DNA of 14,184 bases from a virus (Duplodnaviria > Heunggongvirae > Uroviricota > Caudoviricetes), in the IMG/VR virus record IMGVR_UViG_2541047119_000008; one strand, given 5' to 3'. This document shows, piece by piece, positions 6,001 to 9,000 of this stretch (positions are counted from its first letter, which is position 1; each line of letters opens with the position of its first letter). The position numbers were made by a program.

Positions 6001-9000
6001 ATGACTGGGGGCGTCCCGAAAAATATCTGGTGTATAAAAGCCGTCCCGTATCCGGACGGCAGATGGAAACCAAAGAAGTGGATGCAGAGCGAATGCTGCA
6101 TCTTAAATTTGTTCGCCGTCTGCACCAGATGCGCGGGACGTCTTTGTTGTCCGGTGTGCTGATCCGCCTCAGTGCCCTGAAAGAGTATGAGGATTCTGAG
6201 CTGACTGCAGCAAGGATCGCCGCTGCTCTGGGGATGTACATCCGGAAAGGCGATGGGCAGAGCTATGAACCGGATGGTAATGGCAGCAAGGATAAGGAAC
6301 GCGAGCTTACCATTCAGCCAGGCATTATTTACGACGATCTGAAACCCGGCGAAGAAATCGGAATGGTGAAGTCGGATCGCCCCAATCCTAACCTTGAAAC
6401 TTTTCGTAATGGTCAGTTGCGTGCCGTGGCGGCGGGCAGTCGTCTGAATTTTTTCCAGTACAGCGCGCAACTATAACGGCACTTACAGCGCCCAGCGTCA
6501 GGAGCTGGTTGAATCCACTGATGGCTACCTGATCCTGCAGGACTGGTTTATTGGTGCCGTCACCCGCCCGATGTATCGTGCCTGGCTGAAACAGGCTGTG
6601 GCATCCGGTGTTATCAGGCTACCCCGCGATCTTGACCGTTCTTCACTGTATACCGCGGTGTATTCCGGACCGGTGATGCCGTGGATTGACCCTGTTAAGG
6701 AGGCTGAGGCCTGGAAAATTCAGATTCGTGGTGGAGCAGCGACAGAATCAGACTGGGTACGTGCAGGTGGTCGTAATCCGGATGATGTCAAACGTCGGCG
6801 CAAGGCCGAAATTGATGAAAACCGCAAGCTGGATCTGGTATTTGATACCGATCCGGCCAGTGATAAAGGAGGCAGCAGTGCCGCAACGAAACGACAGGAG
6901 CCGCAGCACACCGACGACCAGTCCGAAGAATAATTCCTGGTTCAGGATGCAGGCTGGTCACCAGAGTGACGCGGATATTTATATTTATGACGAGATTGGT
7001 TTCTGGGGTGTTACAGCGAAGCAGTTTATCAGTGATCTGAATGCACTGGGCGATATCACCCACATTAATCTCAATATCAATTCACCGGGTGGCGATGTCT
7101 TTGAAGGCATCGCCATTTTTAATGCACTGAAAACACATGGTGCGTCCATTACCGTTTATGTCGACGGTGTGGCGGCGTCAATGGCGTCGGTCATTGCGAT
7201 GGTGGGAAAACCGGTCATTATGCCGGAAAACTCCTTCATGATGATTCATAAACCATTTGGCTTTACGGGCGGTGATGCGGAGGACATGCGCACCTATGCC
7301 GACCTGCTCGATAAAGTTGAGGCGGTTCTGTTACCCGTTTATGCACAGAAAACCGGGAAAACCACCGATGAAATTGCTGCCATGCTGGCGGATGAGACCT
7401 GGATGTCCGGTGCCGAATGTCTGGCACATGGATTTGCTGATCAGGTGACGCCAGCCGTTAAGGCAATGGCATGTATTCAGTCAAAACGTACAGAGGAATT
7501 TAAAAAGATGCCGGAATCCATTCGAAACATGATTACTCCGCCACGCAACAGTGCTCCACGCGTACAGGATGATGGACCTGCAGCCTCCCGGACGCCAGTG
7601 CAGGCAGCAGCACCTGTGGTGGATGAAAACAGTATCCGTGCGCAGGTACTGGCAGAGCAAAAAGCGCGTGTAAACGGTATTAATGATCTGTTTGCCATGT
7701 TTGGCGGGCGTTATCAGACGCTGCAGGCTCAGTGTCTTGCCGATCCTGAATGTTCGCTGGAGCAGGCCCGCGAAAAGCTGTTGAACGAGATGGGGCGCGA
7801 GTCCACGCCATCTAATAAAAATACCCCGGCTCATATTTATGCCGGAAACGGTAATTTTGTGGGGGATGGGATCCGCCAGGCGCTGATGGCGCGTGCCGGA
7901 TTTGAAAAAACCGAACGTGATAATGTCTACAACGGGATGACCCTGCGTGAATATGCCCGTATGTCACTGACTGAACGGGGTATTGGGGTTTCCAGTTATA
8001 ACCCGATGCAGATGGTCGGTGCGGCGTTCACACACAGTACGTCTGACTTCGGTAATATTCTGCTGGATGTTGCGAACAAAGCCATTCTGCAGGGCTGGGA
8101 AGATGCCCCTGAAACCTATGAACAGTGGACGCGGAAAGGTCAGTTGTCTGATTTTAAAATTGCCCATCGTGTGGGTATGGGGGGCTTCAGTGCTCTGCGT
8201 CAGGTGCGTGAAGGGGCGGAATATAAATACGTCACCACCGGAGATAAACAGGCCACTATTGCACTGGCGACCTATGGCGAGCTGTTCAGTATCACCCGTC
8301 AGGCCATTATCAATGATGATCTGAATATGCTGACCGATGTCCCGATGAAACTGGGCCGTGCGGCGAAATCCACTATTGCCGATCTGGTTTATGCCATTCT
8401 GACGTCTAACCCGAAAATCTCCACAGATAATGTAAGTCTGTTCGATAAAGCGAAACATGCAAACGTACTGGAGAGCGCTGCAATGGACGTGGCATCGCTG
8501 GATAAAGCCCGCCAGTTGATGCGCGTTCAGAAAGAGGGGGAGCGTCATCTGAATATTCGTCCTGCGTTCGTACTGGTACCGACGGCGATGGAGTCTGTTG
8601 CTAACCAGGTCATTCGCTCCTCAAGTGTCAAGGGGGCTGACATTAACGCCGGTATTATTAACCCGGTGAAAGATTTTGCGACCGTTATTGCAGAGCCTCG
8701 TCTTGATGATAACAGCCAGACCACCTTCTACCTGGCTGCGTCAAAAGGCTCCGATACGATTGAAGTGGCTTATCTCAACGGTGTGGATACGCCATATATT
8801 GATCAGATGGAGGGCTTCAGTGTGGATGGCGTGACAACGAAAGTGCGTATTGACGCCGGTGTCGCGCCAGTTGATCACCGCGGTCTGGTGAAATGTACGG
8901 CGTAAACGTCGCAGACAACAACTCTGATGGCCCGTAAGGGCTTTTTTTGTACCTGAAATCAGCCCCTGAACGGGGCTGTGCGGAGACAGTTATGGCAAAG

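What the first reader, a model, noticed from the sequence alone, without database searches (positions are those of the whole stretch)
6947..8905. Protease, scaffold and major capsid apparently encoded as a single 653 aa polypeptide
Lambda uses separate genes C (protease), Nu3 (scaffold), D and E (capsid). Here the only ORF between portal and the small head proteins starts with a ClpP-like domain (NSPGGDVFEG, GVAASMASV, MIHKPFG), has a Gln/Ala-rich linker, and ends in a ~350 aa domain large enough to be the capsid shell protein. This implies autoproteolytic maturation with the protease and scaffold cleaved off the capsid precursor. Such fusions are known in some enterobacterial prophages, so it is noteworthy rather than new.
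Basis: partly seen in the sequence, partly recalled or inferred. Interest (0 to 1): 0.4.

Follow-up and report, generated by a model that had tools for sequence, protein, structure and literature searches.

The report
Fused protease–scaffold–capsid phage gene
This is the well-known single gene of Gifsy-2-type lambdoid phages that encodes the head protease, a scaffold-like segment and the capsid shell protein as one chain; it sits intact in a defective E. coli O157:H7 prophage and is ordinary.

Summary
The ORF matches NCBIfam NF045540, [quoted passage not shown], at 979 bits against a cutoff of 475. It is 69.8% identical over 97% of its length to the Gifsy-2 tripartite capsid gene (Effantin et al. 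2010). It is 99% identical to the same gene in viable coliphages such as mEp460, cdtI, Tritos and phi458.

- **Protease:** the N-terminal domain is ClpP-like, with Ser101/His124/Asp172 invariant in 76 homologues.
- **Middle:** residues 220-248 are a hypervariable Pro/Ala-rich linker, and residues 250-308 are a three-helix module.
- **Capsid:** residues ~327-675 model confidently as an HK97-fold capsid protein (pLDDT 81). All top Foldseek hits are capsids or encapsulins.
- **Context:** the head module has no other capsid, scaffold or protease gene. A cement/decoration gene follows.

One correction: the start is most likely GTG 6878 (675 aa, strong Shine-Dalgarno), not ATG 6947.

About 37% of complete E. 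coli genomes carry the region. The host prophage is defective: the portal is frameshifted and an IS element cuts the tape-measure gene. Novelty: already known. Interest: low.

The parts
6865..6872 (+). Shine-Dalgarno sequence (AAAGGAGG) serving the GTG start at 6878
   Evidence: this is the only strong SD in the frame. It lies 5 nt upstream of GTG 6878, inside the 3' end of the portal reading frame.
6878..8905 (+).
   Evidence: PGAP annotates it as WP_001136598.1 in identical O157:H7 DNA. NF045540 scores 979 bits against a cutoff of 475. phrog_133 scores 1181 bits. It is 99% identical to phages mEp460 and Tritos and 69.8% identical to Gifsy-2.
7013..7450 (+). ClpP/S14-like serine protease core (aa 46-191). 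The catalytic Ser101 is at 7178-7180, His124 at 7247-7249 and Asp172 at 7391-7393.
   Evidence: Pfam CLP_protease E 2.8e-36. NF045542 'head maturation protease, ClpP-related' scores 215 bits. phmmer against PDB ClpP chains gives E 1e-16, with GxAAS and MIHxP aligned. Ser101, His124 and Asp172 are invariant in 76 of 76 ClpP-type homologues.
7535..7621 (+). Hypervariable Pro/Ala-rich linker (aa 220-248)
Evidence: The alignment shows length and sequence variation exactly here among homologues that are 76-99% identical.
7622..7804 (+). Central three-helix module (aa 249-309). It is the presumed internal scaffold, equivalent to a delta domain.
   Evidence: The AlphaFold model places helices at 250-273, 280-288 and 294-308 with pLDDT about 86-89. 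This region was also the only moderately confident part of the shallow-alignment model. A scaffold function is inferred, not tested.
7805..7855 (+). Connector of low predicted order (aa 310-326, PSNKNTPAHIYAGNG...). It is the most likely region of the maturation cleavage.
   Evidence: pLDDT is below 50 for model residues 66-80, which are aa 310-324. Alignments of distant homologues to the capsid domain mostly begin at aa ~327-333. The cleavage site itself was not determined.
7856..8902 (+). HK97-fold major capsid protein domain (aa 327-675)
   Evidence: Pfam Phage_capsid_4 E 1.5e-54 and Mu-like_gpT E 3.7e-8. A profile search against PDB hits 8rkx/8rkc at E 3e-12 and 9jod at E 3.6e-11. The AlphaFold model has mean pLDDT 81.1. 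Foldseek finds 152 PDB hits at E <= 1e-3, and all 50 listed are encapsulins or phage/VLP capsid proteins. The top BFVD hits are annotated major capsid proteins.
8929..8948 (+). Terminator-like GC hairpin followed by a T-run, directly after the fusion gene
   Evidence: The mEp460 record annotates a terminator under the same aligned region. Function was not tested.
8992..9315 (+). Head cement/decoration protein (107 aa), the partner of the capsid domain
   Evidence: Pfam Phage_cement_2 (PF09956) E 1.4e-20. phrog_122 'head decoration'. The same gene follows the fusion gene in Gifsy-2, MD8 and a metagenomic relative. [quoted passage not shown]
5424..6933 (+). Portal gene, here a pseudogene. A 1-bp insertion at the T-run 6449-6454 leads to a premature stop at 6474-6476. 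Its 3' end overlaps the fusion gene start by 56 nt.
   Evidence: Two portal ORFs lie in different frames. There is a single indel relative to phage Tritos, at 6449. The sequence is shown. PGAP annotates two portal fragments.

Best explanation
Window 6878-8905 is the tripartite capsid gene of a Gifsy-2/mEp460-type lambdoid head module. One polypeptide of 675 aa carries three parts:
- an N-terminal ClpP-like (S14) serine protease (Ser101-His124-Asp172);
- a variable Pro/Ala linker followed by a three-helix scaffold-like module;
- a C-terminal HK97-fold major capsid protein.

Shown here: the domain composition, the fold, the orthology, the single uninterrupted frame and the absence of separate protease, scaffold or capsid genes.

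Inferred from the family (Gifsy-2 work and general HK97/lambda knowledge): the precursor co-assembles on the portal into a T=7 procapsid, with the protease and scaffold parts facing inward. The tethered proteases then cut off and degrade the N-terminal ~310-325 residues. The shell expands during DNA packaging and is stabilised by trimers of the downstream cement protein.

In this particular E. coli O157:H7 prophage the gene is intact. However, the prophage cannot build heads or tails on its own, because the portal is frameshifted and the tape-measure gene is interrupted by an IS element.
For: Family and orthology:
- NF045540 scores 979 bits against a cutoff of 475, aligned end to end.
- Pfam finds CLP_protease plus Phage_capsid_4.
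- phrog_133 matches over the full length.
- PGAP names the identical protein 'ClpP-like prohead protease/major capsid protein fusion protein'.
- tblastn gives 69.8% identity over residues 18-674 to Gifsy-2 STM1034.3n, and 98.5-99.1% to viable phages mEp460, Tritos, phi458, cdtI and Ayreon.
- Gene order is identical in Gifsy-2 and Pseudomonas phage MD8, where the gene is annotated 'protease and major capsid protein'.

Protease: the triad is invariant in 76 homologues, and the catalytic motifs align with solved ClpP chains.

Capsid fold:
- AlphaFold model of residues 245-675 has pLDDT 81.1.
- Foldseek hits are exclusively HK97-fold shells.
- A profile search of PDB matches solved gpT-type capsids at E 3e-12.

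Single frame:
- No other head protease, scaffold or capsid gene lies between terminase and tail genes.
- No internal Met is conserved between the protease and capsid domains.
- No strong internal SD exists.

Literature:
[quoted passage not shown] 2010)' (PMC12315714).
- Gifsy-2 has T=7 (PMC8814770).
- Gifsy-2 has a trimeric decoration protein at its 3-fold axes (PMC8538268).
Against: Nothing contradicts the assignment, but several points remain open.
- Processing, the cleavage site and the scaffold role of residues 249-309 are inferred, not shown. I could not read the primary Gifsy-2 paper, because it is not in the library.
- The first full-length model was unusable, with pLDDT 34.7.
- TM-scores to solved capsids are moderate (0.46-0.61 normalised to target length). 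This fits a divergent HK97 fold with a flexible E-loop and N-arm plus the extra helical module.
- Relative to phage Tritos, this copy has 5 amino-acid replacements, all within the first 233 residues (four in the protease domain, one in the linker). One is Asn66, at a position that is Arg or His in the other homologues of the 97-sequence alignment (R 65, H 18, with single E and Y). Protease activity of this specific allele is therefore not guaranteed.
Confidence: 0.93

Rival explanations
1. The long ORF is an artefact or a decayed pseudogene. On this view a frameshift or deletion in this defective prophage merged two originally separate genes, a protease and a capsid gene.
For: The prophage is demonstrably decaying. 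The portal is frameshifted and an IS element sits in the tape-measure gene. Frameshift artefacts do occur in this family in databases: 1159-aa 'portal+ClpP+capsid' proteins and a split 446-aa capsid call in a metagenome.
Against: The same uninterrupted frame is present in viable, plaque-forming or induced phages at 99% identity. It is also present in Gifsy-2, Fels-1, Klebsiella, Providencia and 31 Pseudomonas phage records. Most of the closest 148 cluster representatives at 50% identity have it too: 111 are at least 600 aa long. The artefacts run the other way. The one 'unfused' example I examined is a split fusion gene.
Confidence: 0.01
2. The protein is only a protease/scaffold, as many GenBank records label it ('putative protease/scaffold protein', 'head-tail preconnector protein Nu3'). 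On this view the true shell protein is encoded elsewhere.
For: Annotations of mEp460, cdtI, the Stx2 phages and PhiR55_1 use such names.
Against: The C-terminal 350 residues have an HK97 capsid fold and match Pfam Phage_capsid_4 at E 1.5e-54. No other ORF in the head module has any capsid signature. Other annotators call the same gene 'Major Capsid Protein' or 'protease and major capsid protein'.
Confidence: 0.02
3. Two products are made from the gene, as with lambda C/Nu3. These would be the full-length protease fusion plus a more abundant protease-less scaffold-capsid protein made from an internal start (for example Met211). That would set a low protease:capsid ratio.
For: Lambda uses exactly this nested-gene trick (established knowledge). 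Met211 (ATG 7508) is invariant among the 15 enterobacterial homologues and has a weak AGGA 10 nt upstream. One protease per capsid subunit seems extravagant.
Against: Met211 is not conserved in the wider family: it is M in only 23 of 97 sequences and otherwise L, I or a gap. No column between the protease and capsid domains is Met-rich. The SD is weak compared with that of GTG 6878.
Confidence: 0.05

Closest known systems
Salmonella phage Gifsy-2 tripartite capsid gene (STM1034.3n; Effantin et al. 2010, Virology 402:355)
   Same: It has the same three-part architecture and the same position between portal and cement gene. It is 69.8% identical over 97% of the length. The conserved N-terminal NSW(F/Y) motif and an overlap with the portal 3' end are shared.
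   Different: The Gifsy-2 product is annotated at 696 aa against 675 aa here. The linker differs in length. The Gifsy-2 prophage is inducible and makes virions, whereas this O157:H7 prophage has a broken portal and tape-measure gene.
NCBIfam NF045540 (scaf_prot_MCP1) family, including coliphages mEp460, cdtI, Tritos, phi458 and Ayreon and Pseudomonas phages MD8 and F10
   Same: The model matches end to end, well above its cutoff. Protein identity to the coliphages is 98.5-99.1%.
   Different: There are five replacements relative to Tritos (H66N, N111K, T119S, A154V, E233G). All lie within the first 233 residues (four in the protease domain, one in the linker).
Lambda head genes C (S49 protease), Nu3 (scaffold, nested in C), E (capsid) and D (decoration)
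   Same: The module has the same lambdoid order (Nu1-A-W-B-...-D-like-tail genes). It uses a D-like cement protein and, per the Gifsy-2 literature, a T=7 head. The protease is covalently linked to scaffold.
   Different: The protease belongs to a different clan member (ClpP/S14-like; the SppA/S49 model scores only 22 bits against a cutoff of 155). The capsid protein is fused as well, so one gene stands in for lambda's C, Nu3 and E.
HK97 gp4 protease / gp5 capsid with N-terminal delta domain; and NF045541 (scaf_prot_MCP2) S78-protease/capsid fusions
   Same: The scaffold function is built into the capsid precursor and removed by the prohead protease. The capsid fold is HK97. Close relatives of this capsid domain exist fused to an HK97-type S78 protease (PF04586) instead of ClpP.
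   Different: Here the protease is ClpP-like, not S78. NF045541 matches only the scaffold and capsid part and stays below its cutoff (399 bits against 525). A cement protein is present, which points to stabilisation by decoration rather than by HK97-type covalent chainmail. Cross-linking was not tested.

Membership tests
ClpP-like prohead protease/major capsid protein fusion (NCBIfam NF045540; Gifsy-2-type tripartite capsid gene) | Full-length match to the curated family model above its cutoff | tested here: met
   979.1 bits against a cutoff of 475. Residues 9-651 of the 652-aa query align to model positions 2-651 of 652.
ClpP-like prohead protease/major capsid protein fusion (NCBIfam NF045540; Gifsy-2-type tripartite capsid gene) | N-terminal ClpP/S14-like protease domain with a Ser-His-Asp triad | tested here: met
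   Pfam CLP_protease E 2.8e-36. NF045542 scores 215 bits against a cutoff of 120. Ser and His motifs align with solved ClpP chains. S101, H124 and D172 are invariant in 76 homologues. Catalytic activity was not tested.
ClpP-like prohead protease/major capsid protein fusion (NCBIfam NF045540; Gifsy-2-type tripartite capsid gene) | C-terminal HK97-fold major capsid domain in the same reading frame | tested here: met
   Pfam Phage_capsid_4 E 1.5e-54. PDB profile hits to 8rkx/8rkc at E 3e-12. AlphaFold pLDDT 81.1. Foldseek hits in PDB and BFVD are all HK97-fold shells or major capsid proteins.
ClpP-like prohead protease/major capsid protein fusion (NCBIfam NF045540; Gifsy-2-type tripartite capsid gene) | Central domain between protease and capsid acting as an internal scaffold | tested here: inconclusive
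   A confident three-helix module at aa 250-308, flanked by disordered linkers, is predicted. It is conserved in the family. The scaffolding function cannot be tested computationally.
ClpP-like prohead protease/major capsid protein fusion (NCBIfam NF045540; Gifsy-2-type tripartite capsid gene) | Genomic context: directly after the portal, followed by a cement/decoration gene, with no separate protease, scaffold or capsid gene | tested here: met
   for the window. The same order holds in Gifsy-2 and MD8.
ClpP-like prohead protease/major capsid protein fusion (NCBIfam NF045540; Gifsy-2-type tripartite capsid gene) | Proteolytic removal of the protease and scaffold parts to give a mature capsid protein of ~350-365 aa in virions | not testable with these tools
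   This requires virion proteomics or N-terminal sequencing. The primary Gifsy-2 paper could not be read here.
Lambda gpC-type (S49/SppA) prohead protease with nested Nu3 scaffold | S49 (SppA-like) protease domain | tested here: not met
   The best protease matches are ClpP/S14. TIGR00706 SppA_dom scores only 22.3 bits against a cutoff of 155.
Lambda gpC-type (S49/SppA) prohead protease with nested Nu3 scaffold | Conserved internal in-frame start that produces a separate scaffold protein | tested here: not met
   No strong internal SD exists. No Met is conserved between the domains across 97 homologues.
HK97-type S78 protease/capsid fusion (NCBIfam NF045541) | Match above the curated cutoff, including the S78 protease domain | tested here: not met
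   399 bits against a cutoff of 525. Only residues 197-649 (scaffold plus capsid) align. There is no PF04586 hit.

The most novel reading that the evidence does not exclude
In the O157:H7 lineage the gene may survive as a half-decayed module. The capsid domain is unchanged at the protein level relative to viable phages (0 replacements against 7 silent changes). The first 233 residues (protease domain and linker) have taken all 5 replacements, including Asn at a position that is otherwise Arg or His next to the oxyanion loop. This could mean the capsid part is still under selection, for example to co-assemble with or be recombined into the many co-resident lambdoid prophages of O157:H7, while the protease is drifting.
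Probability: 0.1. Interest if true: 0.3.

Novelty: already known. Interest (0 to 1): 0.1.

Why it matters
It matters little beyond correct annotation. The architecture has a curated NCBIfam model and an experimentally studied prototype, Gifsy-2. It occurs in about 37% of complete E. coli genomes (2012 of 5426 with at least 80% coverage) and in thousands of protein clusters. There are three practical points:
- The gene should be annotated as the major capsid precursor, not merely 'Clp protease' or 'protease/scaffold'. One automated MCP-identification pipeline obtained no HK97-fold MCP for Gifsy-2 (PMC8814770), though that paper gives no reason.
- The start is GTG 6878, overlapping the portal gene.
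- This O157:H7 prophage cannot make particles by itself.

Tried and rejected
- **Full-length AlphaFold model with a shallow alignment.** With 15 sequences of 76-99% identity the model had pLDDT 34.7 and was unusable. I replaced it with a model of residues 245-675 built on 97 diverse homologues.
- **Primary Gifsy-2 paper.** I tried to read it by PubMed id, but it is not held. Only secondary citations could be used. Three literature searches for cleavage-site or proteomic data on this family found nothing useful.
- **Lambda-style nested internal start at Met211.** Rejected, because the Met is not conserved beyond enterobacterial homologues and its SD is weak.
- **Natural 'unfused' ancestors among shorter relatives (~446 aa).** The one I examined (P0306) is a frameshift-split fusion gene, with the ClpP domain lying upstream in another frame. 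Short database entries are therefore not reliable evidence of an unfused state.
- **Fusion as an artefact of prophage decay.** Rejected, because viable phages carry the same frame.
- **Canonical G/GT slippery site GGGAAAG near the tail chaperone genes.** The only match, at 9367, is elsewhere and is no more than chance would give.
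Full report
**What the window is.** The 14.2-kb window is the late region of a lambdoid prophage of E. coli O157:H7. The 4.2-kb stretch around the finding is 100% identical to many O157:H7 chromosomes. Related sequence is present in 2135 of 5426 complete E. coli genomes, 2012 of them with at least 80% coverage. PHROG and Pfam scans of all substantial plus-strand ORFs give this order:
- endolysin and Rz spanin;
- a KilA-N protein;
- small and large terminase;
- a gpW-like adaptor;
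- portal;
- the ORF in question;
- a cement/decoration protein;
- a Gifsy-2-family head-tail protein;
- tail completion, terminator, major tail, G and T chaperones;
- a tape-measure gene that runs into an IS3-family transposase at the window's end.

**Check of the observation.** Window 6947-8905 translates without stops into 652 residues and contains the quoted motifs. Pfam finds CLP_protease at residues 23-168 (E 2.8e-36) and Phage_capsid_4 at residues 355-649 (E 1.5e-54).

The start needs correcting. The frame is open upstream to 6677.
- The only candidate start with a strong ribosome-binding site is GTG 6878, with AAGGAGG 5 nt upstream. ATG 6947 has none.
- PGAP uses 6878 for the identical protein, giving 675 aa.
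In both, the equivalent of that Met is Ile, so translation must begin upstream of it.

The CDS is therefore most likely 6878-8905.

**What it is.**
- NCBIfam NF045540, 'ClpP-like prohead protease/major capsid protein fusion protein', matches end to end at 979 bits against a curated cutoff of 475. phrog_133 matches over the full length.
- The protein database holds thousands of homologues with this name and this length.
- tblastn against 50,697 phage records finds 74 records covering at least 80% of the protein. They include viable coliphages at 98.5-99.1% identity (mEp460, Tritos, phi458, cdtI, Ayreon), Stx-converting phages at ~76%, Fels-1 at 71.8%, Gifsy-2 at 69.8% over residues 18-674, and Klebsiella, Providencia and 31 Pseudomonas phages at ~56%.
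- Gifsy-2 and MD8 have the same gene order: large terminase, W, portal, fusion, cement protein. MD8's gene is annotated 'protease and major capsid protein'.
[quoted passage not shown] 2010)' (PMC12315714). It also records that Gifsy-2 has a T=7 capsid (PMC8814770) and a trimeric decoration protein at its 3-fold axes (PMC8538268).
- The primary paper was not available to me. My recollection of its abstract is that it describes a ClpP-like protease, a ~200-residue central domain of possible scaffolding role, and a C-terminal capsid protein modelled with HK97 gp5 and lambda gpD. That recollection is from memory only.

**Anatomy.**
1. *Protease, aa ~46-191.* It aligns with solved ClpP chains at E ~1e-16, with the GxAAS-M and MIHxP motifs in register. 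In a 97-sequence alignment, Ser101, His124 and Asp172 are invariant in all 76 members that carry a ClpP-type domain.
2. *Linker, aa 220-248.* It is Pro/Ala/Val-rich, not Gln/Ala-rich. It varies in length and sequence even among close homologues.
3. *Central module, aa 250-308.* Three helices are predicted with pLDDT ~86-89. It is followed by a poorly ordered connector at aa 310-324.
4. *Capsid domain, aa ~327-675.*
   - A first full-length model built on a shallow alignment failed, with pLDDT 34.7.
   - With 97 diverse homologues, the model of residues 245-675 reached mean pLDDT 81.1 and pTM 0.68.
   - Foldseek against the PDB gave 152 hits at E <= 1e-3. All 50 listed are HK97-fold shells, such as encapsulins, the P. 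furiosus VLP, and the phiXacJX1, T5 and SaPI1 capsids.
   - The BFVD hits are annotated major capsid proteins.
   - Independently, a profile of the domain matches solved Mu-gpT-type capsid proteins (8rkx/8rkc at E 3e-12, 9jod at E 3.6e-11).

Neither is met.

**How it most likely works.**
- *Shown:* the single frame, the three parts, the intact catalytic residues and the partner cement gene.
- *Inferred from the family and from HK97/lambda paradigms:*
  1. The 74-kDa precursor assembles on the portal into a procapsid, with its N-terminal parts inside.
  2. The tethered proteases then cleave within or near the connector (aa ~309-330) and degrade the internal parts.
  3. The shell expands on packaging, and cement-protein trimers stabilise it.
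- I tested the lambda-like alternative of a nested internal start that would give a protease-free scaffold-capsid product. The only candidate, Met211, has a weak SD. It is not conserved outside enterobacterial homologues, and no Met-rich column exists between the domains. A single product per gene is the better reading.

**Family context.**
- The capsid domain has 10,625 cluster representatives (50% identity clusters) at E <= 1e-3. Of the closest 148, 111 are at least 600 aa long, and 79 of those have a ClpP domain detectable by phmmer.
- Other close relatives carry an HK97-type S78 protease (PF04586) in place of ClpP. That corresponds to the sister model NF045541, which matches our protein only over the scaffold and capsid part and below its cutoff.
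- One apparently unfused 446-aa relative turned out to be a fusion gene split by a frameshift.

**State of this copy.**
- The fusion gene is intact. It differs from phage Tritos by 15 nucleotides, 5 of them amino-acid replacements: H66N, N111K, T119S, A154V and E233G.
- All 5 replacements fall within the first 233 codons (four in the protease domain, one in the linker), where 3 changes are silent. In the remaining 442 codons none of the 7 changes alters the protein. My one-sided Fisher calculation gives p ~0.02.
- Position 66 is Arg or His in the other homologues of the 97-sequence alignment (R 65, H 18, with single E and Y).
- The surrounding prophage is defective. The portal has a 1-bp insertion at the T-run 6449-6454, giving a stop at 6474-6476. 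The tape-measure ORF ends at 13809, next to an IS3-family transposase.

**Verdict.** It is a routine member of a curated and experimentally characterised family. Interest is low.

Noticed in passing
window 5424-6933 (indel at 6449-6454): The portal gene is a pseudogene. A 1-bp insertion at a T-run, relative to phage Tritos, shifts the frame and gives a stop at 6474-6476. PGAP annotates two portal fragments in all the O157:H7 genomes listed.
   Followed up: yes
window 12052-13809 and 13812-14183 (-): The tape-measure ORF is truncated at 585 aa, against ~1020 aa in a related O157 prophage. Next to it, on the minus strand at the window's end, is an IS3-family transposase with an rve integrase core. 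Matching genomes annotate this element as IS1203/IS629.
   Followed up: partly
window 7073-7075 (codon 66 of the 675-aa protein): The O157 allele has Asn66 immediately before the INSPGG oxyanion-loop motif. The other homologues in the 97-sequence alignment have Arg (65) or His (18), with single Glu and Tyr. All 5 replacements relative to Tritos lie within the first 233 codons (four in the protease domain, one in the linker) and none in the capsid domain.
   Followed up: partly
window 8929-8948 and 8960-8978: Two GC-rich hairpins lie between the fusion gene and the cement gene. The first is followed by a T7 run, like an intrinsic terminator. It could attenuate transcription after the highly expressed capsid gene.
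   Followed up: no
proteins P0005-P0017; window 6677-6878: The databases contain single-member 1159-aa proteins combining portal, ClpP and capsid domains. They are probably frameshift read-throughs, which are possible because the fusion frame is open for ~200 nt upstream of its start inside the portal gene.
   Followed up: no
proteins P0291, P0301, P0317, P0332, P0342, P0364: Capsid domains 47-50% identical to this one are fused to an HK97-type S78 protease (PF04586) instead of a ClpP-like one (~637 aa). The same capsid lineage has therefore been joined to two unrelated protease families.
   Followed up: partly
L005 3300-5341 (JGI metagenome contig): A 446-aa 'stand-alone' capsid gene call is really a fusion gene split by a frameshift. 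The ClpP domain lies just upstream in another frame. This is a caution against reading short database entries as unfused forms.
   Followed up: yes
window 1262-1759 and 2243-2632: A KilA-N/ORF11CD3 protein sits between the lysis and terminase genes. A 129-aa ORF with no PHROG or Pfam match lies just upstream of the small terminase gene.
   Followed up: no
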